Source: a virus. From it: a DNA stretch of 64,000 nt. The stretch lies in IMG/VR virus record IMGVR_UViG_3300027793_000078, positions 1 through 64,000 of that record. One strand, given 5' to 3'. This document shows positions 3,751-42,287 of the stretch, piece by piece. Made by a program: the position numbers and the translations under genes. The notes below the pieces were generated by a model that searched no databases, was not told where the DNA came from, and saw only the letters and a program-made list of their open reading frames with translations. The stretch's first letter is position 1. The number at the start of each line of letters is the position of its first letter.

Positions 3751-3836
3751 TGGTGAGTGCCGTTGCCAGCCTGCCGATCTTTCTCCTTCGGTGGCATAAA
3801 AGGTTCGGAAAAGATTAAAACACCTAACGGCACTCA
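3751..3836 (-). ncRNA. Small rod-like structured RNA ending in ACCA
   Basis: Minus strand GAGTGCCGTT...AACGGCACTC-ACCA; inner stem ATCTTTTCC/GGAGAAAGAT; TACTTAT motif just upstream; intergenic. Confidence 0.5.
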
Positions 3837-3915
3837 GTCAATAAGTATTTTACAGAAAAAAAAAGAGAATTGTTTTTTAGACAATTCTCTTGCTATTCAA
3901 ATTGTAATTAACAAT

Positions 3916-4215: not shown

Positions 4216-5976
4216 ATAATTACTGTTTAATTTTACTGACCGGCATGAAAACTCATTGGTTTGGCAAGCAAAATACGACCATCTGAGTTTACTTCAATTT
4301 CAATATTGTCTTTTCCGATATAACCATTTTCGTAAGGATCGTTTTCGGTCAGAATTTCTTCTTTCTGTTCTTCGGTCAATTCTACCTTGACATCTTGCCA
4401 CTTGCCATTTACATTTTTAAATTCTTTTGCTTTAGGATGATCGGCAAGCAATTCTTCAAAGTTGTTGTAAACATACATTGTATGTCCACCGTCTCCATTA
4501 TCTTGCAAACGGGTAACAACAGGAATCGTATATTTTCCGGGCTTGAGAGTCATATTTAAGATTATACAGAGAATTAGCGGTTTTAAAGGATAACCGCAAA
4601 CCCCCAAGTTGAATTCAGTAAACCGACTGGTTGAAATACTTCTCAACACGCGGAATAAAACTATTGGTAATTTCCTTCATAACCTTATGAGGAATCTGTT
4701 CCGGAGGACGAACATTCTTCATGCGATCCGCCGCACGGCGAATGCCTTCGGCCTTGTCAAACTTATCGCTTCGCGTATGGGTATAACTCCACCCAATCCG
4801 AATGATACCATTAATCAGCCCGGCAACCAGAACACCGCGAGGCATTCCCTTTTCGCGGACCATGACAATTTTGCCCTTGGCATCCCGTGCAATCTTGCCA
4901 TCAGCAAGAATCTTGGGAACACGCTTGCCCTTTTCTCGGACCAACTGCATCAGTTGCGCCTCGCCGCTTCGGTAGTCAATCTTATTCATTTTTTTATGTC
5001 TATTGGTTTTAGTCTTCGTTCAGTCGAAACTGTTCGCGCAGATATTCACGGTATCCGCCCAAATTGTCAAGCTCTTCTTCAACTTCCACATCACCGGTTC
5101 GCAGAATTGCGTCTGCATCCTCATCATTTTTATTATTGATTTCCTTATCCATAATATTTGTTATTGTTTATTCAAAAAATCTTTAGGGAAAACGTCCACA
5201 GTTTTCTGAAACCTAATTGAAATTTCTGATTGACTATAATCTTCTTTGAGATGCAAATCGCCATCCACGAAGATTACCGGCGTGTCAAGCCGAAAACGCG
5301 AAGAACTTTCGTCATCAAATTCCAGAATGAGAAATTCAATTTCGGTGCCGTCTTCATCCTGTTCATTCTTGAAAACAAGGTCATTTTCAATCATCCAACT
5401 ACGACACACGCAATCACCGTCAACTGTAATTTGACTTACATGGTTGAGAATGCCGTTGTCAATCAGTTTTTGTAGAGTATCAGTCATATAATTTACTCGT
5501 CCACAATAGCCGCCTTGGTGAGAACGTCAATGTTTTTTCGTGCGATCCCGTCGATTTTTTCCTGCTTGGTTCGCTTGACACTGGCAACAATTTGCTTGAC
5601 AACCGCATCAGCAGTTGCTTTGCCGCCGGGGCAATTAAAAATGAATTCAAAAGTAACGGATTCGGATTTTTTAATCACAAAGTGCCACTTGCGACTGTTA
5701 CGGTTGAAACTATAATTAACATTTTCCAGAGTGTAAGTTTTCATGTGTGCGAGAATGGTGCAGTTTTTTTCTTCTGTCAACTACAATCTTTACCGCTGAT
5801 CCAAAAAACGAGGCACACAATCAAAAACCCAAAAATTGGCACCCAAATGTTGTGAGTTATGAGATAACTATAAAAATACATGGTGGATGTGTACCACACG
5901 ATCAACGCCGTGTCAAGCGGCATTTTTTCTAAAAAAAGTGCTTGTACTAGGGCAAATACCGTCTAAAGTGGTGTCC

Positions 5977-6621
5977 ATGAAATTGAAAGGCGCATTGTTG
6001 GAAGCGTGGAATGCGGTGGGTGGGTTGAGTCAACCAAGTAAAATGCCGTGCTACAGTTACAGTATTCCTGCCAATAAGTGTTTGGTTGGGGGCAAATTGA
6101 GAGCGGTGGAAGGAAGCGTTTGCCACAAGTGCTACGCATTCAAAGGGTTTTACGTATATCCGAATGCAAAAAATGCACTTGAAAAAAGATATTTGAGTTT
6201 GAGTGACCCGCAGTGGGTTGCAAACATGACATTGTTAATTGGAAGTTTGGAGCATAGTGGTTATTTCAGGTTCCATGATAGCGGAGATATTCAGAATATT
6301 AGTCATTTTGACAATATCTGTCAAATCGCTCGAAACCTACCTAATATCAAATTTTGGCTACCAACGCGGGAGTATAGTATTATTTCCGAGTATGTCAAGA
6401 GCAAAAAAACTATTCCAACAAACTTGACGGTTAGGCTTAGTGCATATATGGTGGATGGACCGTTGCCGCTTGCATTGGCAAAACAACTTAATGTTGTTTC
6501 CAGTGGAGTTTCAACGAATGACAATTTTACTTGTCCGGCAAGCAATCAAGGCAATCATTGTTTGAATTGTCGATTGTGCTGGAACAAAACTGTTAAATCT
6601 GTAATTTACAGAAAACATTAA
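5977..6621 (+). CDS. GP88-like Cys-rich phage protein
   Basis: SKMPCYS, C..CYA, FRFHDSGD, FWLPTRE, RLSA, CPA...CLNCRLCW motifs; ATG at 5977 preferred. Confidence 0.7.
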   Translation: MKLKGALLEAWNAVGGLSQPSKMPCYSYSIPANKCLVGGKLRAVEGSVCHKCYAFKGFYVYPNAKNALEKRYLSLSDPQWVANMTLLIGSLEHSGYFRFHDSGDIQNISHFDNICQIARNLPNIKFWLPTREYSIISEYVKSKKTIPTNLTVRLSAYMVDGPLPLALAKQLNVVSSGVSTNDNFTCPASNQGNHCLNCRLCWNKTVKSVIYRKH

Positions 6622-6630
6622 TTATTTTTC

Positions 6631-8001
6631 ATGGAACTACTTGACCCGCAGAAACAACACGCCAAGTTTCTTTTGGATAGTTTATATTTGAATGGTGTTG
6701 CCGACGACCTTAGTGACACTGGCACTGGAAAAACATTTGTTGCTTGCTGGATTGCAAAACAAATGAATTGTCCCATTGTTATCATTTGCCCCAACAGCGT
6801 AAAAATGATGTGGCAAAAAACGCTGGCTAAATTCGGAATTAAAAATCCTCTAATTATCAATTACGAATTGCTGGTTCGTGGCAATACAGAGTATCTTAAT
6901 TATGATTTGACCAAGTTTCATCGGACTGCCAAGTGGTGGTTGAGCGAAGGAATCAAAGTTAATTTTAGACAAGATAGTTTGGTTATTTTGGATGAACAGC
7001 ACAAGGGACGGGGATTGAACAGTCTTACGTCTGATTTGCTTATTGTTCTAAAAAACCAAAAATATAAGATTCTTGGTATGAGTGCAACTGCCGCAACCAG
7101 TGTTGCGGACATGAAAGCCATTGGCTACAAGGCAAATCTGCACAACGGAGAAAATTATCATCAATGGTGTAACGATCACGGTGCCCGTGTAAATCGTTAC
7201 GGTGGAATTGATTGGGACGCCGATCAAACGCCTGCAAAGCAAGGCATGGCACGTATTCACCACAATCTATTTAATATTCAAAAGATTGCCAGTCGAATGC
7301 GACGTGCGGACTTTGGGCATCTTTTTCCAGAAAATCGTGTATTTGCTGAAGTCTTTGACATCGGCGCAAATACAAATAAACTAAATCAAGTTTATTCACG
7401 AATGGAATTGGAACTTGATTTGCTTGACAAACGTGCGGCTGATTATAGCCAACACGCATTTGCGATCATTATGAAGGCTCGGCGTCAAGCTGAAATTCTC
7501 AAAACTCCAACAGCGGTGGATTTCATCGAAGATATGTTTGACGAAGGAATCAGTCCTGTTATTTTTGTCAATTTCGATGACACTGTGCAATCACTGACTC
7601 GGTTGCTCAATAAGAAAAAGTTCAATGGAAAAATTGGCTATCTGGTTGGTGGTCAAGACGAAAACGTTCGCAATCGTTACATTGATGACTTTCAAGCTGA
7701 CAAGCTGCGAATTTTTATTGCAAATATTCAGGCTGGAAATATGGGTGTCAGTCTGCATGATTTGAATGGAAAATTTCCACGGCACAGCTTGTTGTTTCCT
7801 TGTTGGAGTGCCGTCAATATTATTCAAGCCATTGGTCGAATTTATCGTGCGCTTGGCAAAACTCCTTGCATTCAACGGTTTTTTTATGCTAACGTGCCCG
7901 TCGAAGTTCGCATGGCAAGTCGAATCGGCAATCGTGTAAATAATTTGGATTGCTTGAACGATGGCGACGTAAATATGGAATATCAATTTCTGGCACAATG
8001 A
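6631..8001 (+). CDS. Superfamily 2 helicase (SNF2/DEAD-like)
   Basis: TGTGKT Walker A, LDEQH Walker B, SAT motif III, QAIGRIYR motif VI. Confidence 0.9.
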   Translation: MELLDPQKQHAKFLLDSLYLNGVADDLSDTGTGKTFVACWIAKQMNCPIVIICPNSVKMMWQKTLAKFGIKNPLIINYELLVRGNTEYLNYDLTKFHRTAKWWLSEGIKVNFRQDSLVILDEQHKGRGLNSLTSDLLIVLKNQKYKILGMSATAATSVADMKAIGYKANLHNGENYHQWCNDHGARVNRYGGIDWDADQTPAKQGMARIHHNLFNIQKIASRMRRADFGHLFPENRVFAEVFDIGANTNKLNQVYSRMELELDLLDKRAADYSQHAFAIIMKARRQAEILKTPTAVDFIEDMFDEGISPVIFVNFDDTVQSLTRLLNKKKFNGKIGYLVGGQDENVRNRYIDDFQADKLRIFIANIQAGNMGVSLHDLNGKFPRHSLLFPCWSAVNIIQAIGRIYRALGKTPCIQRFFYANVPVEVRMASRIGNRVNNLDCLNDGDVNMEYQFLAQ

Positions 8002-8435
8002 TTAAAATTCTCGCATATAAATATCCTAGTAGTGCGGATATTGCAATGCAACGCACGGTAAAACCGTTGCACCATTCTGTATTGCAACAGAATGTGCAAG
8101 AAACAATTAAAAAATTATTGTTTGCAGACAAACACAATTATTTATTGATTGGTCTCGGCGGCAAATTGTTTGTTTGTGAACGTGTAAATGACAACACACA
8201 AACATACAGTCGTCGTGAAATTGAATATCATCCAAATCAAGATGACGTTTTTTGAAACAAATAAAACTTTTATCACACTTTTACAAATCAACAATTTTTA
8301 TGTGAAGTGGTGGTACAATCAAATTGATTTAAATTTTGGCAAGATTATGTTTGCCAACAAGCGTTATGTGTGGTATGCTCACTTCTACAAGATAGAAATT
8401 GCATACGAGCAATTTCGTAATCAGTAATTTAATGT

Positions 8436-8512
8436 GGCCTCGTAGCTCAAATGGCTAGAGCATTCCGTTTCTACCGGACTGGTTGGGGGTTCAAATCCCT
8501 CCGGGGCTACCA
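8436..8512 (+). tRNA. tRNA-Arg(TCT)
   Basis: GGCCTCG/CGGGGCT acceptor, GCTC/GAGC D stem, TCCG-TTTCTAC-CGGA anticodon arm, GGGGG-TTCAAAT-CCCTC T arm, ACCA. Confidence 0.9.
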
Positions 8513-8712
8513 AAAAAATAAAATATGAGAACACCAATACGTGATAATCGCAGTCGTCCAATCGGTTATATTGATAACAATAGCCGATTGTTTGATAAAA
8601 CAGGTGGCAAATTGCTTGCCACCTACAACAAAGCAACCAATAGCACATATGGTGCCAACGGTAATTTGATAGGAAAAGGTAATTTACTTTTAACCAAAAT
8701 CAAATAAAAAAG

Positions 8713-8742
8713 AAATCCCCGGTTGTTAGCCGGGGATTTTTT
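8713..8742. terminator. Bidirectional intrinsic terminator between convergent genes
   Basis: AAATCCCCGG-ttgttag-CCGGGGATTT flanked by A and T runs. Confidence 0.85.
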
Positions 8743-9361
8743 ATGCTGCAAAACTGTCAGTGTCGTCTTCCTTATCCAGCTTTATCAAATTATCATACAC
8801 GTCTGTGAGATTCATCATTTTTCCGAATTCAAATACATTTTTTAGTTTTACTTGAACGTGTGTATCGGAATTAAGAAAATCGGCTGGTGCTTGGGAGAAG
8901 ATATAAAGATCATCTGCCAATATTTTTGCCATTTCCAATGATGGAGCCATGGAAATACCCATACTCAATCCACCAACCATAAGCAATCTTTGTTTATCTG
9001 TCCATTTGAATTTTGTTTGCATAACGGTTAATTGGTAAAATGAGTAACCAACTTGTAAATTGCCCAAATGATTGCGACCGGCAAACAAAAAATGCCGATG
9101 ATGTAAAGTAGAATCATTGCAACAAATGATCCAACGGCACCGCCCATAAGCAATACAGCGAACCAATCTTTGATTTTATTTTTAATACGTTTCATAAATT
9201 TTAATTGCCTCCCAACAGTTGACCAACTTCCCAATGCTCCAATGGTTCGCCGTTAAACAACAGATAATTGCTGTGAGTTTGAGTCTGCTTGTCAAGTAGA
9301 CAAACAATAACACTTTTGAGTTTGAGAGTATCCCAAATTAGTTTATACGGATTAGAATCAT

Positions 9362-9712
9362 TCATTGCACACCCAATTCCTGTTCAATTTTTTCGGTTCG
9401 TCCCATCCAAGGTTGGGCTTTGATATTCATAAACCAATCTTGCATAGAAGGAATGCGTCCCAAATCCTCTTTTACGTGCTGTTCTGCAACGTAGCGAGTC
9501 GGCAAAACATTGCCATTGCTGAGTGTGATAGTAACACCAAAAATGCGTTCACACAAGAAAATTCCTTCGGCATGATGCCTCAATGCACGATGGCGAAAAT
9601 CGCCCATCATCATTTTGCTTTCATCGAACCAATTATGAATTGGAAGATAATCTTCAACCTTGCCGCCCCACTTTTTGACGCTGCTCAACGCATGATTATA
9701 TGGATGACTCAT
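9362..9712 (-). CDS. DUF6915-like His-rich protein
   Basis: HPYNHALSSVKKWGG..DY..IH.WFD.SK...HRALRHH...EQHVKEDLGRIPS pattern; homolog at 50447. Confidence 0.65.
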   Translation of the reverse strand: MSHPYNHALSSVKKWGGKVEDYLPIHNWFDESKMMMGDFRHRALRHHAEGIFLCERIFGVTITLSNGNVLPTRYVAEQHVKEDLGRIPSMQDWFMNIKAQPWMGRTEKIEQELGVQ

Positions 9713-10141
9713 ATTGTGGCGTTCAGCTTAGGCTCAATTTTCCTGACAGTCAACACCCGTTTTGAGATATTTTGTGATGCGACGTTCCCATTCTTCGATT
9801 GAAATTGCTTTTTTGTAATCGGTTGCCGCTTCTAATTTCAGAAAATCACAGGTTTCGCTAGTGGCACAGCTTTTAAATCCAAACCATTGAACGATGCAGC
9901 AACTCAAAATAAAAGCCGTGGTTTCAATGCCGCCAGCAACATAAGGTAGTTTATCATTATCGTTTGGAAGTGAGGAGTTCCATTCAATTCCATAATGGCA
10001 AATTTCAGCAAGCAAATTGATTTTTCGCTTCACTTCCAAACTATCAAAGTTCAAATTCATGGTATGAAATTAGGTTATTGTTTGTTGGTTGTCAACTTCT
10101 TTTTACGAAAAATAAGGTCAGTTCAATTTATTCTGCTTAAT

Positions 10142-10892
10142 TCAGCGATAAATTTGCCGCAAAAACTCATTTGCTTTTGCAACAATTTCTGCGTCATTTG
10201 TTTTTCCTAGAACTTGGTTTCCGTCAATTCTTCCAACAAAAATCACAGTATTGTCTTTTTCAAAACTAATGTCAAGACGATGATTTTTTCCATGAAAGAA
10301 TTCCATAGCTATTGCGCCATCATGTTCGGGATAAGGATCGGGGCGAGTTTCTGTATTAATATCAAATACAGAATTTAGATTTTTTACGAATTCTTTTGCA
10401 CGGCGGCAAACATCCAAAGAAATTGGAATTTCTCCTTCGTTTCCCCAATTAGGGAATGATGATTCATTACAAATTTGATCGATTTGTTCCAATAATTCTC
10501 TAGTTATTTCAACTGCCATATAAAATTATTCGTTCTTCCTTGACGGCTTACAGAATAGATTCTTCCTATTCTGGATAATCGGAATGATCCGCGTGGAAGT
10601 CCGTCAATCGCTCCATTATTTTTTCTGCCCAATCGTTCAAATTTTTATCAATAGCCTTTTCGATCAAATCGATTTCTTCTGCCGTAAATCCGTTTTTATC
10701 CCATTCAGTCTCGTCAATTACAGCATAATCAACACCTTTGTCAATTCCTTTGCTGCCCCAATATTCGTAAGGCCCAATGCCATCATTGTCAATGCTGAAT
10801 TTGCATTTTACTTCAATTTCAGCATAATATACATCTGTGTTCTCATTTCCAACAACCGGCAGTTCAACTTTAATGGTAAAAGTTTCAGTCAC
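10142..10892 (-). CDS. Two hypothetical acidic proteins (10142-10519, 10566-10892)
   Basis: Intact ORFs co-oriented with neighbours; no family recognised. Confidence 0.6.
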
Positions 10893-10922
10893 GCAAATAG
10901 TCTATTGTTGGAAATGAAAAAG

Positions 10923-11426
10923 TCAAGCGGTTTTTGTAGGATTTCCTGCAAACCTTTTTATTTGTCCCTTGGCGAGACTAAAATCAAATTCAAAATTACT
11001 TGTTTCAACGCTTGTAACACGCTCATTGTATTCCAAATTAATTTTTCCGGTGGCAACGTCAATGGTAAAGGTGCCGAAGCTGCCTTCGTTAATTTCCCAT
11101 CCATCGTGGGATGTTTCCAACGTATTATAACAAATATGTTCAATCACTTCCTCAAGATTCGATTCACGAATTTCGGTAACTGGTTCCACAGTACCGTCTG
11201 GATTGTATTGACGACCGATAATAAATTTAACTTTACCAACCTTGATTGCCTTCAAGTCAACGTCGCTGCCGTCTTCGCTAATACAGGTAATACTGTCAAT
11301 TTGACCACTGTCACCACAGCCGTCAAAAGTAACTTCAATTTTTTCGATACCGAGTAGCTTAATCGCATTAGCAATGGCGGACGAATCGTTTGTAGACGTA
11401 ATGTTATTATTATTTTCAGTGTTCAT
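10923..11426 (-). CDS. DUF6878-like acidic protein
   Basis: IEVTFDGCGDSGQID and GWEINEGSFGTFTID motifs. Confidence 0.6.
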   Translation of the reverse strand: MNTENNNNITSTNDSSAIANAIKLLGIEKIEVTFDGCGDSGQIDSITCISEDGSDVDLKAIKVGKVKFIIGRQYNPDGTVEPVTEIRESNLEEVIEHICYNTLETSHDGWEINEGSFGTFTIDVATGKINLEYNERVTSVETSNFEFDFSLAKGQIKRFAGNPTKTA

Positions 11427-11477
11427 AGTTGACGGTGATAGAATATTTGTTCCCTCACCCTATGTCAACAAAAGAAT

Positions 11478-11506
11478 GCGCCGGAAGGAAATTTTCCTTC
11501 CGGCGC
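11478..11506 (-). terminator. Intrinsic terminator after the Lys/Ala-rich gene
   Basis: Perfect 13-bp GCGCCGGAAGGAA/TTCCTTCCGGCGC hairpin followed by ATTCTTTT on the minus strand. Confidence 0.75.
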
Positions 11507-11540
11507 GAAACCTACTCAAAGAAACATTTGTTTCGTTGAC

Positions 11541-12218
11541 TTAGGCCGTAACCGCATCAGTGGCGGCAGGAATTTCGACGGCAGGCGCCGGATCAACCGG
11601 AGCCGCAACATCGGCAACCGGAACCGTCACGGCATTGGACTTGGACTTCTTGGCAGACTTGGCCTTGCCGGTCTTGCCCTTGCCCTTGCCCTTGCCAACC
11701 TTGGTGGTCTTGGTCGCCTTGGTCTTGGCCTTGGTCTTGGCCTTGGTCGCCGTGGCCTTGGCGGGAGCAACACCGTCGTCAAACGTGTAGCTCACACTGT
11801 CCTTGGCAATGCGCTTGTGAGTCGCACGGTGCGAGTGCGTGTTATACTTGACACCCTCGCCGTGGACCGCAACATCATACTCCATGCCAACCGGCACATA
11901 AACGACCTTGCGCTCACCCTTGCCGTCCTTAGCAGGACGACCGCGCCCAACAGGCTCGCCGTTCAGCAAGATGACACGCCGCGCCCAATACGTGGTGCCA
12001 CGGGGAGTATACTCACGCTTCTCGCCGTTGCGCTGGCGAGCAGCCTTACCCGGAGTCTCGGCAACCGGAGCGGTGGTTTGGGTCTCGGTCTCGGTGGCAG
12101 CAGTGACATCGGTTCCGCCGAGAATGTCGGCGGCAACGGTCGCAACCGAATGCTCAACAGCGGAAACGGTCTCGGTGGCAGTGGCAACGGCAGTGGTAAC
12201 TTCAGTGTTCTCAGTCAT
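11541..12218 (-). CDS. Lys/Ala/Thr-rich putative DNA-binding (histone H1/AT-hook-like) protein, GC-rich gene
   Basis: PVGRGRPAK AT-hook-like motif; TKAKTKAKTKATKTTKVGKGKGKGK tail; codons strongly C/G-ending. Confidence 0.6.
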   Translation of the reverse strand: MTENTEVTTAVATATETVSAVEHSVATVAADILGGTDVTAATETETQTTAPVAETPGKAARQRNGEKREYTPRGTTYWARRVILLNGEPVGRGRPAKDGKGERKVVYVPVGMEYDVAVHGEGVKYNTHSHRATHKRIAKDSVSYTFDDGVAPAKATATKAKTKAKTKATKTTKVGKGKGKGKTGKAKSAKKSKSNAVTVPVADVAAPVDPAPAVEIPAATDAVTA

Positions 12219-12296
12219 GTTATTTTTTCTTTCTACGTGTTTTAGTTTGTTTGATTGAGTGTCGATCACCATGACCGCCTCAATCGTTACGCCATT

Positions 12297-12325
12297 AAGC
12301 TACTCGCCTTAATCGACGAACGCAA
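12297..12325 (-). promoter_or_regulatory. sigma70-type promoter
   Basis: Minus strand TTGCGT-N17-TAGCTT upstream of the 12218 gene. Confidence 0.55.
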
Positions 12326-12376
12326 CACCTTTTTTCAGAAATCTTCATCGGCAAATGCAACGTCCATCGCGGCTAT

Positions 12377-12456
12377 TGCAGGATTGGTGCCAAGTCAAAG
12401 GGCAATTTCAGGTCTGGTGAATCTATAGATAGTATAGATAGCAGTCACCATGCCAA
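12377..12456 (-). promoter_or_regulatory. Two tandem sigma54 (-24/-12) promoter-like motifs
   Basis: Minus strand TTGGCACCAATCCTGCA (12377-12393) and TTGGCATGGTGACTGCT (12440-12456), both GG-N10-GC. Confidence 0.55.
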
Positions 12457-13141
12457 CTCCGGAAAAATTTTTGCTAAAAACTGATTGATTTTTTTCTGAA
12501 TGCGGAAATTAAAACCGGTTAAAAAATAATTTTCAAAAAAATGTCAATTTAAAAATGAAAAAAACTAAAACGTTAATTTGCAAGAATTTACAAATAATTT
12601 TTTTTTGCAAATATATAATTTATTAATTTATAAGAAATTAAATGATAATTGTATTTTTAACAATTATTATTAACATTTTTTTTGTTGTAGAAAGACTAAA
12701 AAACAACCAACATAAAACAGCGTAGAACGAAAATAAGATTAAATGAATGTAAATTTTACAGTGATGTGATAAAAAATGGACTAACAATTCATTTTAGTTG
12801 AATAATTTACAAATGTTCTAATTCATCATTTTCTTTTTCGTTGAACAAACAATCTGTAATTAAGATATATCCAAATATCATGTTGTGTAATATTATTGTA
12901 CCAAACAAAAAAGCAATGGGTAAATGCGATATGATGTCTGTCATATTTAGTTTAGTTTAGATTAATAAGTAATAACATACCACCATATATATAAAAAATA
13001 AAAATTATTAATTATAGATTTTTTTATGTTTTTAGAAAGTCTGTTATTAATTTTGCGTGTGGGGTGTATATTGAATTGGGGGCGGGGGCGTTAAATAAAT
13101 ACTCTCTATGGGTAGGGGATGTATATTTATTATTAACACTT

Positions 13142-14149
13142 ATGAAATATATAGATTATTACAAACATCTATTAATAGAAGATTTAAGAAGTGAAAGCGA
13201 TGAGTATTATTATCATATAACGCTTGCTCCATATCTTGAGACTATATTAGTTAAGGGACTACAAATCGGCAAAAAGGCTACTGTAAGTAATTACAGCGAA
13301 CATAGCCGTGGAAAAATCTTTTTGTGTGATATTGGTGTAGTTGACTGGTGGAAATATAATATTGAACAGCATGCGTTTCATCAATTTGATGATGAAAAAT
13401 TTCATGAAGTTGCCGTTGTTAAAATCAAGAAAGATAAACTGAAAAATGTATATGTAGATGAAATTGGTAGTGAAGACAGTAGAGGTAATTGTTATTATGT
13501 AACCAATGACATTCCTGCTAATTTTATTGAAATTCATGAAAAAGATGGGGCGGATAAAAATTTAACCGAATCGACATGGAGTGGATGGGGAAATATTACG
13601 AGTGTTGATAAAGAAGAATTTAAAGATATTTTGGTTAAGTACATGGAATATATAAATCGCGTATATAGTAAAGAATTGAGCAGTCAAAAAACATTACGTA
13701 TTAAAAAATTACTTGATGCAATAGATTCCACTGATTCAAAGGATGCATCTAAGATATTAGCTAGATTTGACATGGAAACAAGAATGAGCATAAGTGATTT
13801 CATTCCACTGAACAATAAAGGCGCAAACAAGGTATTTGACTTTCTTTATGAGAAATCAAAACAATATATTGAGCCTTTTCGGATTGTTGATTCTGATATT
13901 ACATTAAACAATGTCGCCAAATATAATAATAACAATATGGGAGATGTTAAAATATATGGTTTACAAGATCATAGACCGATTGTAGATTTTGGCAGCGGTA
14001 AATATACATTTGATGAAGAATTTATAAAAACTACAACAAATACCAATGAATTCTATCTGGATATTGGTCAAAACTGGAAAATAATCAATTTTAAAGACGT
14101 ATTACGCAAAATACATGCAGCAATAGATAATTATTATCGTACCCATTAA
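13142..14149 (+). CDS. Putative internal virion protein with N-terminal ADP-ribosyltransferase-like domain
   Basis: MKYIDYYKHLLIE leader; YYHITL...ILVKGL...IFLC...IPANFI ART/Tpt1-like pattern; TATTTAT upstream. Confidence 0.55.
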   Translation: MKYIDYYKHLLIEDLRSESDEYYYHITLAPYLETILVKGLQIGKKATVSNYSEHSRGKIFLCDIGVVDWWKYNIEQHAFHQFDDEKFHEVAVVKIKKDKLKNVYVDEIGSEDSRGNCYYVTNDIPANFIEIHEKDGADKNLTESTWSGWGNITSVDKEEFKDILVKYMEYINRVYSKELSSQKTLRIKKLLDAIDSTDSKDASKILARFDMETRMSISDFIPLNNKGANKVFDFLYEKSKQYIEPFRIVDSDITLNNVAKYNNNNMGDVKIYGLQDHRPIVDFGSGKYTFDEEFIKTTTNTNEFYLDIGQNWKIINFKDVLRKIHAAIDNYYRTH

Positions 14150-26460: not shown

Positions 26461-27891
26461 ATGATTAGTTTAAAAGAGTTATTGATGGAAGGAGCAAAAG
26501 AAAATGCTGCATTGGATTATTTGCAGCATTTGGTACGTAATGGGCCATTCAAAGGAAGAGTTTACCTTGCAGGCGGTGCTGTGCGTGATATGCAACTTGG
26601 TAAAGATCCAAAAGATTTGGATGTTGTTGTTACAGGCGGCATTGATGCTGGTATGGAATTTGCCAAATGGGCAACTCAATACATGAATAATTTCAAGGAA
26701 GGCAGCAATCCTGTGCTGTTTCCTACATATGGTACTGCTAAATTTACATTGAGTGGTATCGTTCATAATGGTATTGATTTGAGTGATGTCGATATTGAAG
26801 CAGTTGCAACCAGAAAAGAAAAATATAGTAGTGGCAGTCGCAAGCCAGAAGTAAGTTCTGGTGATCTTGCCGATGATGTTAATCGTAGAGATTTTACTGT
26901 TAATAGTCTGTTGAAAGACTTGACTAATGGTGAAATTTTGGATTTGACTGGATTGGGTAAACAAGATATTGCCGCTGGTATTATTCGCACTCCATTGAAT
27001 CCTGATATTATTTTCAGTGAAGATCCTCTTCGTATGTTGAGAGCGGTTCGATTTGCTTTCAAATATGATTGGGATTTGCCATTATTTATGATTCGGGCAT
27101 TGAAGCGCAATTCATCACAATTAAAAAATATTAGCAATGAACGTATTCGTGATGAACTGGATAAAATGCTTGTAACCGGTAGTCCAGATAGAGCAATTAA
27201 ATTGCTACGCATTACAGGATTGTTAAACTATATCATTCCAGAATTTAAAAGTGCATACAAGATGACACAAAATGTTCATCATAAGCATGATGTATTTACA
27301 CATACGTTGGAAGTTCTGAAGAAAACTAAACCTGTGTTGGCTCAACGTTTAATGGCATTGTTTCACGATATTGGCAAAACTGTTACTCGTAGTGTAACTC
27401 CTACAGGTGTTCATTTTTATGGACACGAAGACAGTGGTGCTGATATGGCAAAAGACATTATGAAGCGACTGAAATATCCAAATGAATTGGCTGACGCCGT
27501 TGCTTTGGGTGTTCAAAATCACATGCGCTTAAAGAGCGGCGGCGATGATGCAGTTAAACTGAGCGATAAAGCGTTGCGTAAATTTAAAGTTACTCTTGGC
27601 GATCAATTGGAAAATTTGCTTGATGTAATGCATGCAGATAATATTGCACATAGCGAAGCAAGCAGCATGCCAAATCAAATTGAAAATGTTAGAAAGCGTT
27701 TGGCAGCATTGCAAATGCCGACTGAAAAACCAAATTTACCTATCAATGGCAACGATTTGATTGCTTTGGGCTTGAAACCGGGTCCACAATTTGCGAAGAT
27801 TATGAGTGCAGTGACTGATGCTTGGTATGAAAACCCAAATATAAATCGTCAACAGGCACTTGAAATTGCTCGAAAAATTGTAAATTTATGA
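26461..27891 (+). CDS. cca: CCA-adding tRNA nucleotidyltransferase with HD domain
   Basis: GGAVRD, DLDVV, RRDFTVN, EDPLRMLRAVRF, SNERIRDE, HDIGK motifs. Confidence 0.92.
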   Translation: MISLKELLMEGAKENAALDYLQHLVRNGPFKGRVYLAGGAVRDMQLGKDPKDLDVVVTGGIDAGMEFAKWATQYMNNFKEGSNPVLFPTYGTAKFTLSGIVHNGIDLSDVDIEAVATRKEKYSSGSRKPEVSSGDLADDVNRRDFTVNSLLKDLTNGEILDLTGLGKQDIAAGIIRTPLNPDIIFSEDPLRMLRAVRFAFKYDWDLPLFMIRALKRNSSQLKNISNERIRDELDKMLVTGSPDRAIKLLRITGLLNYIIPEFKSAYKMTQNVHHKHDVFTHTLEVLKKTKPVLAQRLMALFHDIGKTVTRSVTPTGVHFYGHEDSGADMAKDIMKRLKYPNELADAVALGVQNHMRLKSGGDDAVKLSDKALRKFKVTLGDQLENLLDVMHADNIAHSEASSMPNQIENVRKRLAALQMPTEKPNLPINGNDLIALGLKPGPQFAKIMSAVTDAWYENPNINRQQALEIARKIVNL

Positions 27892-35351: not shown

Positions 35352-35855
35352 ATGAATCATAAAAATGAATATGGTTGCCTCATGGCAATCGTGCCTCCAA
35401 CTCACGGTCCACATATTGTTAAATTTGGTAAAACTGTAATACCTCAAAGTTTATTATACACAAAGCCAGACGATGACAGTTATGGCTATGATAACGAACC
35501 GCATGTAACTGTAAAATTTGGATATGCGCCCGATTTGAATAAGCAAGATTTGGCAACGATTTTACGAGGTATAAAACCTTTTAATATTGTTTTGCATGCA
35601 TTGACACAGTTTAACAACAGTGAATTTGATGTTGTTAAGTTTGATGCGGAAAGTCCCGTATTAAGAGAATTGAGAGCTAGAGCAGACAAATTTCCAAATA
35701 AAGATAAATTTCCAGAATACAAGCCGCACATGACTTTGGCGTATGTAAGACCAAATTCTTTTGGTCACATCAAAGAAAAACTAAATATTAGTGTTCCAAT
35801 TAAACATTTCAAATATAGTGGTGCAGACGGTAGAAAAATATTAATTCATTTGTAA
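35352..35855 (+). CDS. 2H phosphoesterase, Acb1/T4 57B-like
   Basis: EPHVTV and KPHMTLAY HxT motifs; YGCLM start; ~167 aa single domain. Confidence 0.7.
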   Translation: MNHKNEYGCLMAIVPPTHGPHIVKFGKTVIPQSLLYTKPDDDSYGYDNEPHVTVKFGYAPDLNKQDLATILRGIKPFNIVLHALTQFNNSEFDVVKFDAESPVLRELRARADKFPNKDKFPEYKPHMTLAYVRPNSFGHIKEKLNISVPIKHFKYSGADGRKILIHL

Positions 35856-37683: not shown

Positions 37684-37823
37684 GAGATGCACACAGCAAA
37701 CAAAAAAATGCCGTCTTCTCCTTCGGACATTAAATGAAGGTAGACTTGTCGATAGTCCATGAAAAAACACGATCAGAAGTTTAACTGTAAATAAAACTAA
37801 GCATATATTAATGTTGCGTCTCG
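37684..37823 (+). ncRNA. CAGCAA-stem RNA member 1 (carries a Tyr-like anticodon stem-loop)
   Basis: GAGATGC-ACA-CAGCAA...GCGTCTC-G; internal AGTTTAA-CTGTAAA-TAAAACT. Confidence 0.7.
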
Positions 37824-38135
37824 TTAAATTTCAGGCACTTGCCGATTGCCTTTGACACTATATAAGGGAAGTTCAATTAAAATCGGCAAAGTTTTTGCGG
37901 AGTTGGTAGCGTCACCGCCATATAAAAAAGATGCTGCTGGCACGTTCTCAATTGTCAATCTGACGAACGGCGAAGATAATGATTGACTGAAGGGTTGGTG
38001 CAGTATAACCTTGTGGTGTTAAAACCAACAAAACCACATAATTTAATTTTTGTTCTTTAAACATTTTTCGTAGGTCATAGATACGATACTATTTTTAAAA
38101 TATAGTATCAGGGGAGCGTAACCCTTATACGAAAT

Positions 38136-38895: not shown

Positions 38896-39558
38896 ATTTT
38901 TATCTGTTCAAATACGTAGGTCGGACCAACATCAATAGTCAAGTTGGAAACCAGCGTGAAGCTAATGACTATTTCGATGCTTCTGAATAGATAAATAAGT
39001 ATCTGACCTATACTTTAAGCTGTGGTGCGAATCCACAATGGTCACACTTTTAAAAAGTTGTTGACATTGGCGAAGAAAACGCTAAGATGTTCGCAACGAT
39101 GAAGATGGTAATCTTCGATGTTCTTTACAAAATTTTCGGGTGGCGGAACAAACAAATGTATGGTTGTAACGCACAATATCAATGAAGAATTGATATTGGT
39201 TGGAGTAAACAATTGATGTGTAAATCTATGGAGTCAACGGGTCGATCAACCCAATGATAAGCGTATATTCGTCGTAGCTCAAAATAATGACATACCGACG
39301 AAATGAAGGTGAAATCCCTTTCAGTCATTAACATATGAAGTAATTAATCATATGGACTGTGGATGAATAACATAGCAGTTGTTGAAACTTGAAGGTAATC
39401 ATTAGTCCTTCCCCACACTTTTTGCAAGGATGACAGATAGCAACTGTTCCGTAGCATTATATGCAGGATTTGAATTGGCAATCCAAATTCAAACATCGAC
39501 CGCTTTTTTAGAAAAAAAATTAATAAATTTTGTTCTCTGATACTATATATGATTTAAT

Positions 39559-40018: not shown

Positions 40019-40180
40019 ATTTTGGATTATCCTATAAAGCTCTGATTAATTTTGTTTAGTAAAATCACTGCCGAATAACTAAAAGGCATTCGTATTATCC
40101 TCAATAGCAATATTGATGTTTAGACAAAATATAGATGATAATCTGCCGTGGATTGAATCAGCAAGGCTGCGGCAAATCAT

Positions 40181-40452
40181 TTTGTTTGGTAGTTTGGTCA
40201 ACAATAAAACTACTCTAGTAACAACTGCTAGTCTCAGTTGATGGGTTCCATATCCCTTAATAAAAATATGGCATTTGCCCTTTTTTGTAGAAAAAAGGCG
40301 ATGTTATCACTACATCTTAAAAGTGATTGTTGCATCTTAACATAAAAGATGCCCTAAGCAAAAGAACTCCGCTATAGTGAGTTCCAATAGATTCTCCTTT
40401 ACGTGCTAGAATGTTTCATGTTAAAGTGAAACAACTGAGAATCAGCCACAAA
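40181..40452 (+). ncRNA. Multi-hairpin RNA (seven hairpins within a TCTCAGTTG/CAACTGAGA closure)
   Basis: Direct inspection of inverted repeats; no ORF. Confidence 0.55.
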
Positions 40453-40485
40453 TTTATCTAGTAAGATTGTGGCACATTTTAAAAT

Positions 40486-40555
40486 GGCGAGGTAGCTCAG
40501 AGAAAGAGCGTCGGCACAGCCGAGGACGGTGGTTCAATTCCATCCCTTGCCACCA
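40486..40555 (+). ncRNA. tRNA-like RNA lacking a normal anticodon loop
   Basis: GGCGAGG/CCTTGCC-ACCA, GCTC/GAGC, TCGGC-ACA-GCCGA (3-nt loop), GGTGG-TTCAATT-CCATC. Confidence 0.85.
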
Positions 40556-40562
40556 AATTTTA

Positions 40563-40686
40563 GAGATACATTCAGCAATACAAATAAATAATAAACAGCT
40601 ATACGTGGTGTTCGAATCCCACCTTGCCCACTAGACGGGCAAGTAGCCGAGCGGTTCAGGCGGCTGTCAAATAAAAACGTATCTCG
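40563..40686 (+). ncRNA. CAGCAA-stem RNA member 2 containing a circularly permuted tRNA
   Basis: GAGATAC-ATT-CAGCAA...GTATCTC-G; 3' half 40595-40630 precedes 5' half 40637-40667. Confidence 0.85.
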
Positions 40687-40698
40687 TATTTTTACAAT

Positions 40699-40774
40699 GG
40701 TGCGGTGGCAGAAATGGCTATGCAGGAATTTGCAGAATTCCATCATGTAGGTTCAACTCCTACCCGTACCTCCA
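40699..40774 (+). tRNA. tRNA-Cys(GCA)
   Basis: GGTGCGG/CCGTACC, U73, GGAAT-TTGCAGA-ATTCC, TCCA. Confidence 0.92.
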
Positions 40775-40928
40775 GTTTTAACATTCAGTGACTATAAAAA
40801 AATTGCAGACGCAATGACCAAATAGAGGTTGGTTTTAGGTTTTAGTATGAGAAACGGAGTTTGTTGTAAACGTTTATTTCATATATTTATTCAATCATTC
40901 GTCGTCTATTACCGAATGTTTAATTTTT

Positions 40929-40981
40929 AAGACACTTGCAGCAAACATATTTTTTATTGAAAAAAACCAAACGGTGTCTTG
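40929..40981 (+). ncRNA. CAGCAA-stem RNA member 3 (minimal)
   Basis: AAGACAC-TTG-CAGCAA...GTGTCTT-G. Confidence 0.7.
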
Positions 40982-41264
40982 TTTTTGATTTTAGATTAGA
41001 GTTGGAGTTATCGTAGAAATCTGTGGAAGTTGTAATACACAGAGAGTATATTTAAGGAGCCGCTTGACAAACAGAAGGACAACGAGTATGTTTGTTCTAA
41101 GATAACTACACATCCCCTCGGTCAAAGGATATAATCTAATATGTTGGTTGTTCAACGGCAGTCCGTTATTTAAAAAACATCAATGGATGTGCCCGTGTTA
41201 AAACGGGATGAACGGTGAGAGATAGCAGTCCTACTGAAGGCGAAGACTGTAACAATCAATATTA

Positions 41265-41319
41265 TAGACACACACAGCAACTTTATATTCCAATAGGAAA
41301 CAAAAGAGAACGTGTCTAG
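41265..41319 (+). ncRNA. CAGCAA-stem RNA member 4 (minimal)
   Basis: TAGACAC-ACA-CAGCAA...GTGTCTA-G. Confidence 0.7.
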
Positions 41320-41324
41320 TTCAT

Positions 41325-41418
41325 GGCCTCGTAGTTTAATGGTAGAACGCAACGCTTATAACGTTGATAAGCTCCAGATTAGAGCACGGTCTCGGTTCGA
41401 ATCCGGGCGAGGCTACCA
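41325..41418 (+). tRNA. tRNA-Ile(TAT) with very long variable arm
   Basis: GGCCTCG/CGAGGCT, CAACG-CTTATAA-CGTTG, V region with GCTC-CAGATTA-GAGC hairpin, CTCGG-TTCGAAT-CCGGG, ACCA. Confidence 0.85.
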
Positions 41419-41423
41419 AATTT

Positions 41424-41586
41424 TACCGTGTGGTATTTTTGTGATACACGAATAATGGGTAGCATAAAGCAGATATACCACTGAGTGGTTTCAGATGGTA
41501 ATGTATCATACTATGTCCAACGTTCGGTGCTAATTGCGTCTGACCAACATACAATTAGTTGTGGGTTTGATTCCCATCCACGGTAC
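41424..41586 (+). ncRNA. Expanded tRNA-like RNA (acceptor + T arm, enlarged interior)
   Basis: TACCGTG/CACGGTA ends; GTGGG-TTTGATT-CCCAT T-like arm; CTAATTG/CAATTAG stem. Confidence 0.45.
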
Positions 41587-41723
41587 ACTTTCAATTCAAT
41601 CTTTGACAACATATCAATGTTGAGACTAGTCATCTTACCAAAACAAAACCAATCATATTTTGTCGGAGTTGTCGTGTTTTTAAAGTTTTGTGAACTGTTC
41701 GACAACAACATTGATACTTTAAT

Positions 41724-41800: not shown

Positions 41801-41995
41801 ATTTTTAATTCTGTGTATAGATAAACGGTATTGCTATTTGGTAATGACTGACAACAGTATATTATGAGTAAAATCGTAATAATTAGTAATACTAATACCT
41901 ACGGGGATATCAGACTGAACAAACAAATGAGTTTTTGAATTTGGGTTGATATTACAAATCTATTGATTGCGGGTCACAGAAATAAAACTCTTTAA

Positions 41996-42135
41996 AAGAT
42001 ACATACAGCAACAAATAAAGCAATCCAAACTGCATATACAGCGTGAAAATCCTGTTCCCTCTGCCAATTTTAACAGAGTATTTATAGAGGGATCGTCTAA
42101 CATTTAGGACAGCAGTACGCAAAAAATGTATCTTG
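41996..42135 (+). ncRNA. CAGCAA-stem RNA member 5 containing a circularly permuted tRNA
   Basis: AAGATAC-ATA-CAGCAA...GTATCTT-G; 3' half 42029-42066 (ends GCCA) precedes 5' half 42086-42116. Confidence 0.85.
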
Positions 42136-42141
42136 TTTTTT

Positions 42142-42287
42142 GAGTATACATGAACAGAATGAAAATTGTATGGCGACGAGTCCTGTAGTCATAAGACAAG
42201 ACGTGAGGACAAAGATATTATCTATAGGTAATATACGAAAAACGTAACGAAGTGTCTTTGTGGGTCAACTAATCCCACTGTATACTC
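42142..42287 (+). ncRNA. Unclassified structured RNA with T-arm-like 3' hairpin
   Basis: GAGTATACA/TGTATACTC closure; GTGGG-TCAACTAAT-CCCAC immediately 5' of the closing strand. Confidence 0.5.

What the first reader, a model, noticed from the sequence alone, without database searches (positions are those of the whole stretch)
40595..40667. Circularly permuted tRNA #1 (GGGCAAG acceptor) opened at the anticodon loop
Seen: the order is anticodon 3' strand ACAGC, TATAC, T arm GTGG(T)G-TTCGAAT-CCCAC, acceptor 3' CTTGCCC-A, 6-nt linker CTAGAC, acceptor 5' GGGCAAG, TA, D arm GCC-GAGCGGTTCA-GGC, G, anticodon 5' strand GCTGT. All four stems pair, but the molecule is closed at the acceptor end and its anticodon stem continues into the CAGCAA handle. 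The D arm and adjacent TAAA resemble tRNA-Tyr (inference). Standard tRNA finders would probably miss it.
Basis: partly seen in the sequence, partly recalled or inferred. Interest (0 to 1): 0.82.

Follow-up and report, generated by a model that had tools for sequence, protein, structure and literature searches.

The report
Phage Y-RNA-like tRNA mimic
The "scrambled tRNA" is real and conserved, but it is best read as the tRNA-imitating half of a small phage RNA built like a bacterial Y RNA, from a widespread unnamed family that travels with a distant relative of the RNA-binding ring protein Ro60.

Summary
The order is T arm, sealed 7-bp acceptor hairpin, D arm.

The unit is larger, 40563-40685 (+). 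A 7-bp closing helix and an invariant CAGCAA loop (the "handle") enclose the tRNA-like body.

A covariance model built only from 45 elements of 18 other phage contigs finds it at 91 bits. Across 69 distinct family members 96.7% of pair cells are paired, against about 40% in slid controls. The one ortholog keeps every stem through compensatory changes, but not the "anticodon loop". So it is neither decay nor a decoding tRNA.

The architecture is that of YrlA-type Y RNAs. Their defining features fail, though: no GNCGAA Ro-binding motif, 18.9 bits against the 69 required, and no TROVE gene.

Instead, all nine near-complete handle-bearing phage genomes encode a DUF2828/DUF7788 protein. Its predicted fold matches only Ro60 structures. 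This contig appears to end about 8-9 kb short of where that gene sits in its closest relative.

The best reading is a new variant of the Ro60/Y-RNA theme. Binding of the protein to the handle is inferred, not shown. This scan has reported the same pairing before on other phage DNA.

The parts
40563..40569 (+). Closing helix, 5' strand (GAGAUAC); base of the handle
   Evidence: It pairs with 40679-40685. The helix covaries across 69 distinct members, with 99.2% of cells paired; A-U and G-C at pairs 2-3 are (nearly) invariant.
40570..40578 (+). AUU plus the invariant CAGCAA loop of the handle
   Evidence: Each letter of CAGCAA is 94-100% conserved in 70 aligned members. It is identical in the ortholog L028.
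40579..40594 (+). A/U-rich spacer that includes the 7-nt "anticodon-loop remnant" AUAAUAA
   Evidence: It is not conserved in L028, which has UAAAGAA. It gives only an arbitrary AAU anticodon after re-joining.
40595..40604 (+). Anticodon-stem equivalent, 3' strand (ACAGC), plus a 5-nt variable loop (UAUAC)
   Evidence: It pairs with 40663-67. In L028, 4 of 5 pairs are kept with one compensatory change.
40605..40622 (+). T arm: GUGG(U)G, UUCGAAU, CCCAC, with one bulged U
   Evidence: L028 has GGAGG/CCUUC with no bulge. The T stem covaries in the family.
40623..40643 (+). Sealed acceptor hairpin: CUUGCCC, A73-like base, linker CUAGAC, GGGCAAG
   Evidence: The stem is a perfect 7 bp. There are three compensatory pair changes against L028. 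All 7 pairs show double changes in the family, with 96.9% of cells paired.
40644..40662 (+). U8-A9, D arm (GCC, GAGCGGUUCA, GGC) and G26
   Evidence: G18-G19-like GG and A14 are kept in L028, with a C-G to U-A compensation in the stem. It aligns to the D arm of the Rfam YrlA model.
40663..40678 (+). Anticodon-stem equivalent, 5' strand (GCUGU), plus the A-rich tail CAAAUAAAAAC
   Evidence: The tail is 100% identical in L028. An A-rich tail is the family consensus.
40679..40687 (+). Closing helix, 3' strand (GUAUCUC), plus conserved G-U
   Evidence: The G after the helix is invariant in 70 members.
41996..42136 (+). Sibling handle RNA carrying a second, unrelated permuted tRNA-like body (Trp-like: A1-U72, G73, encoded CCA)
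   Evidence: R2 scores it at 63.8 bits. Orthologs in L028 and L116 carry compensatory changes.
40929..40979 (+). Sibling handle RNA without tRNA cargo
   Evidence: R2 scores it at 38.5 bits.
41265..41317 (+). Sibling handle RNA without tRNA cargo
   Evidence: R2 scores it at 35.3 bits.
37684..37825 (+). Probable fifth handle RNA (GAGAUGC/GCGUCUC) with other cargo
   Evidence: The R2 match is weak, 22.9 bits, E 0.06.

Best explanation
The flagged 73 nt are the tRNA-mimic domain of a roughly 123-nt phage small RNA (40563-40685, + strand).

This RNA belongs to a large family that matched no Rfam family here and turned up in none of my literature searches. Family members sit inside phage tRNA islands. 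Each has a conserved handle: a 7-9 bp closing helix AGAYRC/GYRUCU, an invariant CAGCAA on the 5' side, an A-rich 3' side and a trailing G. The cargo inside the handle is interchangeable.

Here the cargo is a tRNA body whose ends have been moved to the anticodon stem and whose acceptor stem is sealed. That is the design of YrlA-type bacterial Y RNAs.

Inferred mechanism:
- The RNA is cut out of the tRNA-island transcript.
- The handle is bound by a phage-encoded, very divergent Ro60-like ring protein (DUF2828 + DUF7788, with a vWA MIDAS motif).
- The L-shaped tRNA mimic (elbow plus 7-bp acceptor helix) docks enzymes that recognise tRNAs. Candidates are RNase P, the phage's own CCA-adding enzyme, modification or repair enzymes, and nucleases.
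- The particle would thereby be tethered or gated in tRNA surveillance or repair during infection.
- RNase P cleavage before G40637 and CCA addition after A40630 are plausible, as shown for Mycobacterium smegmatis YrlA.

Shown: the structure, its conservation, the family, the co-occurrence with DUF2828, and the Ro60-like fold of that protein.

Inferred: that the protein binds the handle, what the tRNA mimic binds, and the biological role.
For: Structure
- A model built without this lineage scores the element at 91 bits.
- Across 69 distinct rows, 96.7% of cells pair, against 68% in shuffles and 37-46% in slid controls. There are 401 cells with changes on both sides.
- The ortholog L028 has 3 compensatory pairs in the acceptor stem, 1 in the D stem, 2 in the T stem and 1 in the anticodon stem. 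The handle and tail stay almost identical: one base differs, an A-C mismatch in L028's closing helix.

Y-RNA-like layout
- The Rfam YrlA model aligns the T arm, sealed acceptor and D arm in the same order.
- Chen et al. 2014 (PMC4201824) describe this domain. [quoted passage not shown]

Family
- The handle pattern gave 31 viral contigs.
- R1 found 71 elements, several per genome.
- CAGCAA and the flanking bases are nearly invariant.

Partner
- An unbiased clustering of neighbouring ORFs put a DUF2828+DUF7788 protein first, in 7 loci.
- The protein is present in 9 of 9 handle-bearing genomes that are at least 90% complete, against 1 of 7 without full-length handle RNAs.
- A handle RNA lies within 1 kb of the gene in G006, G008, G009 and G016.
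- hhalign gives 96% probability, E 4e-9, over 369 columns against a phage TROVE + vWA_Ro60 protein.
- The AlphaFold model has pLDDT 80. Its 12 significant PDB matches (ranks 1-13, one rank left out) are all Ro60/TROVE structures over the full length (E 9e-7 to 6e-4). The next matches have E above 0.1.
- The DxSGS MIDAS motif is invariant.

This contig
- It is collinear with G002 up to its end. By that synteny it stops about 8-9 kb before the position of G002's DUF2828 gene.

Context
- The window also encodes a CCA-adding enzyme with an HD domain and a 2H phosphoesterase.
Against: - No DUF2828, TROVE or RtcB gene lies in the 78-kb contig itself. The partner is therefore inferred from relatives.
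- In the closest relative, G002, the DUF2828 gene is split. It has in-frame stops and a 283-aa ORF between its halves. It may not be functional in this lineage.
- Co-occurrence is not binding, and no binding test was possible.
- The handle-bearing genomes were collected with one sequence pattern, and several are close kin. The 9/9 against 1/7 contrast therefore overstates independence.
- One DUF2828-positive genome (G014) gave no handle hit.
- The handle lacks the GNCGAA motif that Ro60 proteins are known to use.
- The bulged T-stem base in this copy could weaken the elbow.
Confidence: 0.6

Rival explanations
1. The handle is only a processing and stability clamp, with paired ends that resist exonucleases. 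On this reading the tRNA mimic acts alone, as a decoy or sponge. It would soak up host tRNA-targeting defence nucleases or toxins, or tRNA-processing enzymes, with no Ro60-like partner involved.
For: - The element sits in a tRNA island beside other non-decoding tRNA look-alikes. One is the tRNA with a 3-nt anticodon loop at 40486-40552.
- The partner gene is absent from this contig and broken in G002.
- The phage carries tRNA-repair-type enzymes.
Against: - Nearly invariant single-stranded CAGCAA and invariant base pairs at the foot of the helix point to sequence-specific recognition. A clamp needs only pairing.
- Family members without any cargo exist. They would be pointless as decoys.
- The family is tightly linked to DUF2828.
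Confidence: 0.2
2. [quoted passage not shown] The clamp would hold the pieces together. It would then serve in some reaction that depends on a charged tRNA-like end.
For: - The acceptor stem is 7 bp with an A73-like base.
- M. smegmatis YrlA is cleaved by RNase P and receives CCA in vivo (PMC4201824).
- A CCA-adding enzyme is encoded in the window.
- Sibling element 41996-42136 keeps Trp identity marks and an encoded CCA.
Against: - No identity set can be recognised in this element.
- The anticodon region is not conserved.
- Chen et al. considered aminoacylation unlikely to be a general property of these RNAs.
- Nothing here tests charging.
Confidence: 0.1
3. It is a true circularly permuted tRNA gene. 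The precursor would be circularised or spliced at the handle and opened at the acceptor end, giving a normal decoding tRNA.
For: - The 3' half precedes the 5' half, and the re-joined sequence is accepted as a cloverleaf.
- An RNA-library contig joins 42144 back to 41802 around the sibling element, which hints at circular or ligated RNA.
Against: - There is no bulge-helix-bulge motif. The 4 nt before the closing strand are AAAC, which is not complementary to CAGC.
- No tRNA splicing endonuclease is found in 5 related genomes, and no RtcB in this contig.
- The would-be anticodon loop differs between orthologs, and AAU is not a normal bacterial anticodon.
- The distance from handle to body varies widely, and some members have no cargo.
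- The circular joint does not lie at the foot of the handle.
Confidence: 0.05
4. It is a decaying tandem duplication of an ordinary tRNA gene with no function.
For: - Some family members still carry a duplicated anticodon-stem strand, for example L139:7430. That fits an origin by tandem duplication.
Against: - Pairing is kept through compensatory changes in the ortholog and across the family.
- The same order recurs in dozens of unrelated tRNA bodies.
- The flanking handle is more conserved than the body.
Confidence: 0.02

Closest known systems
YrlA-type bacterial and phage Y RNAs (Rfam RF02553; Chen et al. 2014, PMC4201824), partners of Ro60/Rsr
   Same: - It is a small RNA whose 5' and 3' ends pair into a protein-binding helix.
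- The other end is a tRNA-like domain in the order T arm, sealed acceptor stem, D arm, with no anticodon loop.
- Several copies occur per genome.
- It also occurs in phages.
- A 7-bp acceptor version is known to be cut by RNase P and to receive CCA.
   Different: - The handle sequence is AGAYRC-N3-CAGCAA with an A-rich opposite strand, not the GNCGAAN0-1G motif.
- It scores 18.9 bits against the 69-bit Rfam threshold.
- No TROVE gene accompanies it. The associated protein is DUF2828/DUF7788, which resembles Ro60 only by profile and fold.
- The genes lie scattered in tRNA islands and are often not next to the protein gene.
- The family includes members without cargo and members with whole anticodon arms.
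Circularly permuted tRNA genes of Cyanidioschyzon merolae, some green algae and Thermofilum (named from my own knowledge)
   Same: - The 3' half lies upstream of the 5' half.
- A short linker joins the acceptor strands.
- The transcript ends pair with each other.
   Different: - Those precursors form a bulge-helix-bulge motif that a splicing endonuclease cuts and a ligase joins, giving decoding tRNAs.
- Here there is no such motif, no endonuclease gene, no conserved anticodon, and a conserved handle shared with non-tRNA cargo.
Two-piece tmRNA from permuted ssrA genes of alpha-proteobacteria and cyanobacteria (named from my own knowledge)
   Same: - It is a bacterial precedent for a permuted gene whose tRNA-like domain is assembled from a 3' part encoded before the 5' part.
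   Different: - tmRNA has a tag reading frame and an open, chargeable acceptor end.
- ARAGORN found no tmRNA here.
T4 stable RNAs rnaC and rnaD (species 1 and 2) in the T4 tRNA cluster
   Same: - They are small stable RNAs of unknown role encoded among phage tRNA genes.
- rnaC ends in a T-arm-like hairpin.
   Different: - They have no AGAYRC/CAGCAA handle and no sealed acceptor hairpin.

Membership tests
YrlA / bacterial Y RNA (RF02553) | tRNA-like domain in the order T arm, closed acceptor stem, D arm, with the ends paired in a terminal helix | tested here: met
   The cmscan alignment places all three arms in register. Folding and covariation agree.
YrlA / bacterial Y RNA (RF02553) | Ro60-binding GNCGAAN0-1G motif on the 5' strand of the terminal helix (Chen et al. 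2014) | tested here: not met
   The 5' strand reads GAGAUACAUUCAGCAA and the family consensus is AGAYAC-RWA-CAGCAA. By contrast, the phage behind L011 carries GACGAAUG in its elements.
YrlA / bacterial Y RNA (RF02553) | Score at or above the Rfam gathering threshold | tested here: not met
   It scores 18.9 bits against 69.
YrlA / bacterial Y RNA (RF02553) | Encoded with a TROVE-domain Ro60/Rsr ortholog | tested here: not met
   PF05731 is absent from this contig and from 4 complete handle-bearing genomes. A DUF2828 protein with a Ro60-like fold is present instead.
YrlA / bacterial Y RNA (RF02553) | Bound by Ro60 in vivo; tRNA-type modifications (TruB, DusA) | not testable with these tools
   This needs immunoprecipitation and modification mapping.
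Circularly permuted tRNA gene | 3' half upstream of the 5' half, joined by a linker between the acceptor strands | tested here: met
   The re-joined sequence is accepted by ARAGORN in 145 of 189 variants.
Circularly permuted tRNA gene | Bulge-helix-bulge motif formed by the precursor ends | tested here: not met
   A 4-bp central helix would need GCUG before the closing strand. The sequence there is AAAC, and the family consensus is A-rich.
Circularly permuted tRNA gene | Splicing endonuclease and ligase available | tested here: not met
   PF01974 is absent from 5 related genomes. RtcB is absent from this contig. Host enzymes could not be examined.
Circularly permuted tRNA gene | A conserved, sensible anticodon loop after joining | tested here: not met
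   The window has AUAAUAA where L028 has UAAAGAA. ARAGORN calls AAU or other arbitrary triplets.
Handle RNA family of DUF2828-encoding phages (unnamed) | Closing helix AGAYRC/GYRUCU, N3, invariant CAGCAA, A-rich 3' side, trailing G | tested here: met
   R2 scores it at 91 bits.
Handle RNA family of DUF2828-encoding phages (unnamed) | A DUF2828/DUF7788 Ro60-like gene in the same genome | tested here: inconclusive
   The gene is absent from the 78-kb fragment. Synteny with G002 puts it beyond the contig end. In G002 the gene is split.

The most novel reading that the evidence does not exclude
Phages of many lineages may carry a second, undescribed class of Ro60/Y-RNA-like particle. A DUF2828 ring protein would be loaded through a CAGCAA handle with interchangeable tRNA mimics such as this one. 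These would recruit tRNA processing or repair enzymes, or divert host tRNA-cleaving defences, and so protect translation during infection. In the bolder form, the 7-bp acceptor is opened by RNase P and given CCA by the phage's own enzyme, which yields a clamped two-piece tRNA-like effector.
Probability: 0.3. Interest if true: 0.8.

Novelty: new variant of a known kind. Interest (0 to 1): 0.6.

Why it matters
Ro60/Y-RNA particles are a conserved RNA quality-control device. The role of the tRNA-like half of bacterial Y RNAs is still open.

A distinct handle would widen that theme in several ways:
- It is paired with a Ro60-like protein that Pfam labels only as DUF2828/DUF7788.
- It is present in several copies in many uncultured phage genomes of about 120-240 kb.
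- It carries cargo that ranges from nothing to nearly whole tRNAs.

This would also give DUF2828/DUF7788 proteins a testable function and link them to the phage-host contest over tRNAs.

There is a practical point too. These elements are missed by tRNA finders and matched no Rfam family here, so phage tRNA islands are under-annotated.

Tried and rejected
- **Exact 20-mer of the T arm plus acceptor in viral contigs.** All 23 hits were ordinary class II tRNAs, not homologs.
- **The single metagenome scan, using the conserved tail.** All 83 hits were an unrelated, abundant gut sequence. No further orthologs were found and the scan was wasted.
- **Loci found through the neighbouring DUF5856 protein.** Only L028 carries the handle. 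Other CAGCAA-plus-complement matches there were chance hits inside genes.
- **BLAST of family members against cultured phages.** It returned nothing, or only juxtaposed normal tRNAs.
- **T4 rnaC and rnaD.** They have no handle.
- **Protein searches.** TROVE, RtcB and the splicing endonuclease were absent. Gp23 matched only in G002.
- **Rfam at a relaxed threshold.** No ribozyme or other family matched beyond the weak YrlA hit.
- **Motifs checked by eye.** A kink-turn and a bulge-helix-bulge reading of the handle do not fit the strand opposite CAGCAA. Known small-ribozyme cores, recalled from memory, do not fit either.
- **A short GC(A)/(U)GC pairing between CAGCAA and the tail.** It is seen in some members but is absent here and in several others.
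- **RNA-library contigs.** Cover over 40392-40873 is low or absent.
- **Complex prediction.** I did not use it, because it handles protein-protein pairs only.
- **Literature.** I found no paper on the function of DUF2828.

Full report
**Observation.**
- ACAGC 40595-99 and variable loop TATAC 40600-04
- T arm: GTGG(T)G, TTCGAAT, CCCAC, 40605-22
- acceptor 3' strand CTTGCCC 40623-29, then A 40630
- linker CTAGAC 40631-36
- acceptor 5' strand GGGCAAG 40637-43, then TA
- D arm: GCC, GAGCGGTTCA, GGC, 40646-61
- G 40662 and GCTGT 40663-67

ARAGORN and the Rfam tRNA model both pass over it, although they find ten tRNAs around it. The unit is larger than the flagged stretch. GAGATAC (40563-69) pairs with GTATCTC (40679-85), and ATT-CAGCAA follows the 5' strand. 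The 125-nt stretch folds better than 199 of 200 shuffles, z = -3.4.

**Source.** The window is part of a 78.5-kb IMG/VR viral contig estimated at 22% complete. It is A+T-rich and carries a tRNA island at about 37.6-44.6 kb. It also encodes a CCA-adding enzyme with an HD domain, a 2H phosphoesterase, a lysozyme and an HNH endonuclease.

**The handle recurs in the window.** I confirmed them:
- 37684, GAGATGC/GCGTCTC
- 40929, AAGACAC/GTGTCTT
- 41265, TAGACAC/GTGTCTA
- 41996, AAGATAC/GTATCTT

**Ortholog.** The closest relative is L028, whose neighbouring protein is 88% identical. It has the same element at L028:12332-12454. The handle and A-rich tail differ at only one base, an A-C mismatch in L028's closing helix (GAAATAC against GAGATAC). 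The tRNA-like body has diverged, and it has done so in a compensated way:

| Stem | Window | L028 | Change |
|---|---|---|---|
| Acceptor | CTTGCCC/GGGCAAG | TCTGTCC/GGACAGA | three double changes |
| D stem | GCC/GGC | GCT/AGC | one double change |
| T stem | GTGG(T)G/CCCAC | GGAGG/CCTTC | two pairs changed on both sides (one to a G-T wobble); bulge gone |
| Anticodon-stem equivalent | ACAGC/GCTGT | GCAGT/GCCGC | one compensatory change, one wobble, one mismatch |

The seven bases that would be the anticodon loop are not conserved: AUAAUAA against UAAAGAA. This rules out a decaying duplication and argues against a decoding tRNA.

**Family.**
- A scan of viral contigs for AGATAC-N3-CAGCAA-N95-125-GTATCTYGT returned 31 contigs. 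Most carry a T arm, a sealed 7-bp acceptor hairpin and a D arm in that order, built from unrelated tRNA bodies.
- Covariance model R1, built from six members, found 71 elements, usually several per contig.
- On their alignment of 69 distinct rows, 96.7% of pair cells are standard pairs. Column shuffles give 68% and slid controls 37-46%. There are 401 cells changed on both sides, and all seven acceptor pairs show such changes. This alignment is fitted to the model, which favours the structure. The size of the contrast and the slid controls still make the fold secure.
- Model R2 was rebuilt from 45 elements of 18 other contigs, with nothing from this phage or L028. It finds the flagged element at 91 bits (E 3e-14) and the sibling at 41995-42137 at 63.8 bits.
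- The handle consensus is W-R-AGAYAC-RWA-CAGCAA ... A-rich ... GURUCU-Y-G-U. CAGCAA, the A-U and G-C pairs at the foot of the helix, and the trailing G are nearly invariant.
- Short members of 50-60 nt have a handle and no tRNA cargo.

**What it resembles.** The only Rfam family that touches the element is YrlA, the "Y RNA-like" family. The match is weak, 18.9 bits against a 69-bit threshold. Its alignment nonetheless puts the T arm, the closed acceptor and the D arm in register.

Chen et al. 2014 (PMC4201824) describe this design:
- The RNA ends pair in a helix that binds Ro60 through a GNCGAAN0-1G motif.
- The far end mimics the tRNA T arm, D arm and acceptor stem.
- The M. smegmatis RNA, which has a 7-bp acceptor stem, is cut by RNase P and receives CCA in vivo.

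A 392-kb phage picked up by accident (L011) carries an array of such elements with the classical GACGAAUG motif. It also encodes a TROVE + vWA_Ro60 protein.

The window's handle has no such motif. TROVE is absent from the contig and from four complete handle-bearing genomes. The element therefore works like a YrlA RNA but fails the family's defining tests.

**Partner protein.** I clustered all ORFs of the handle-bearing loci without prior expectation.
- The most widely shared protein (7 loci) carries DUF2828 plus DUF7788.
- The family is in 5 of 5 genomes tested first, including G002, the genome that holds L028.
- In a panel of 48 viral records it is in 16 of the 20 contigs retrieved as handle-bearing. 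The four without it are fragments of 22-47%. It is also in 2 of the 28 other records.
- R1 run on the same panel shows that one of those two, G016, has a 66-bit handle RNA about 190 nt from the gene.
- Among records at least 90% complete, the count is 9 of 9 with full-length handle RNAs against 1 of 7 without.
- A handle RNA lies within 1 kb of the gene in G006, G008, G009 and G016.

Two caveats apply. The positive set came from one sequence pattern and contains close kin. Even so, the DUF2828 proteins fall into at least six groups only 36-50% identical to each other.

**The protein is Ro60-like.**
- Nine aligned members keep an invariant DxSGS MIDAS motif.
- Their profile matches the L011 phage's Ro60 homolog at 96% probability, E 4e-9, over 369 columns.
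- The AlphaFold model has mean pLDDT 80 and pTM 0.77.
- Its 12 significant PDB matches (ranks 1-13, one rank left out) are all Ro60/TROVE structures aligned over the full length: Thermus phage phiLo, Xenopus, human and Deinococcus Rsr. E-values run from 9e-7 to 6e-4. The next matches are isolated vWA domains at E above 0.1.
- I found no paper on the function of DUF2828.

**This lineage.** The contig itself has no DUF2828 gene. Its last 16 kb are collinear with G002 56-69 kb. G002's gene lies at 77.7-79.4 kb. Scaled by the synteny, the gene would sit about 8-9 kb past this contig's end. In G002 the gene is split into a 133-aa and a 372-aa ORF around a 283-aa ORF of no known family, with in-frame stops. 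Its state in this lineage is therefore uncertain.

**The permuted-tRNA reading.** The re-joined halves pass ARAGORN in 145 of 189 junction variants, so the body is a good cloverleaf. The anticodon, however, is whatever the junction makes it, mostly AAU. Further points against this reading:
- There is no bulge-helix-bulge motif. The bases before the closing strand are AAAC.
- No splicing endonuclease gene occurs in five related genomes.
- The distance from handle to body varies widely across the family.

I give a true permuted tRNA gene about 5% for this element.

Some siblings are less clear-cut. Element 41996-42136 keeps A1-U72, G73, an encoded CCA and a (A/U)UCCAAA stretch that is conserved in three orthologs. 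The window has no standard tRNA-Trp.

**Expression.** Six freshwater metatranscriptome runs hold parts of the island. Laid contigs show uneven cover, which cannot be ranked. They also show one joint, 42144 back to 41802, around the sibling element. Nothing decisive was seen for 40563-40685.

**Verdict.** The element is best explained as the tRNA-mimic module of a Y-RNA-like handle RNA that belongs with a DUF2828 Ro60-like protein. That is a new variant of a known kind.

After I had reached this reading on my own, a look-up showed that this scan has reported the same protein-handle pairing on other phage DNA. Those notes agree with mine but are not independent evidence. Binding of the protein to the handle, and the role of the particle, remain inferences.

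Noticed in passing
window 40486-40552 (+): A tRNA-like gene lies 10 nt upstream of the element. It has good acceptor, D and T arms and an encoded ACCA, but its anticodon arm is TCGGC-ACA-GCCGA, a 3-nt loop. Rfam tRNA scores it at 51.9 bits and ARAGORN misses it. It is probably another non-decoding tRNA mimic.
   Followed up: partly
window 41996-42136 (+): A second handle RNA carries an unrelated permuted tRNA body. It keeps tRNA-Trp identity marks (A1-U72, G73, encoded CCA) and a conserved (A/U)UCCAAA stretch where the anticodon loop would be. Orthologs in L028 and L116 show compensatory changes. No standard tRNA-Trp was found in the window.
   Followed up: partly
window 41802-42144: In one freshwater RNA library a contig joins 42144 back to 41802 (343 nt). 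In a second library a contig of exactly 343 nt spans 41803-42145. The stretch starts 1-2 nt after the CCA end of tRNA-Leu(CAA) and contains the second handle RNA. It could be a circular or ligated RNA, or an artefact of library preparation.
   Followed up: no
window 39187-39427, 40151-40391, 40874-41596: These non-coding stretches between tRNA genes lie on contigs with the highest word depths in four freshwater metatranscriptome runs. Contig depth cannot rank regions, so this is only a hint that other island RNAs are abundant.
   Followed up: no
window 26461-27891 and 35352-35855 (+): The window encodes a CCA-adding enzyme with HD and tRNA-nucleotidyltransferase domains, and a 2H (LigT-like) phosphoesterase. 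Together they form a tRNA end-repair toolkit in the same phage as the tRNA mimics.
   Followed up: partly
L241:1608-4060 (G002 77.6-80.1 kb): In the closest relative the DUF2828/DUF7788 gene is split into 133-aa and 372-aa ORFs. They flank a 283-aa ORF with no Pfam match, and there are in-frame stops. It may be an insertion, an intron-like element or a pseudogene.
   Followed up: partly
L011 (392-kb phage), minus strand, rc positions ~2000-13400: This phage has an array of at least five classical YrlA-like RNAs with the GACGAAUG Ro-binding motif and sealed-acceptor tRNA-like domains. They lie among normal tRNAs in a phage that encodes a TROVE + vWA_Ro60 protein. None reaches the Rfam gathering score.
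   Followed up: partly
L134, minus strand, rc positions 7283-7601: There is a tandem array of at least five nearly identical handle RNAs of 58-59 nt without cargo, repeating every 64-65 nt.
   Followed up: no
L139:7430-7558 (+): This handle RNA has as cargo an almost complete class II tRNA-Tyr: an ACGGU-CUGUAAA-ACCGU anticodon arm and a long variable arm. The anticodon-stem 5' strand is duplicated at the far end. That looks like the footprint of an origin by tandem duplication, and it allows two alternative pairings.
   Followed up: no
G014 (L020's genome, 350 kb): It encodes a DUF2828 protein but gave no handle-RNA match to model R1 at E <= 0.001. It may use a different handle.
   Followed up: no
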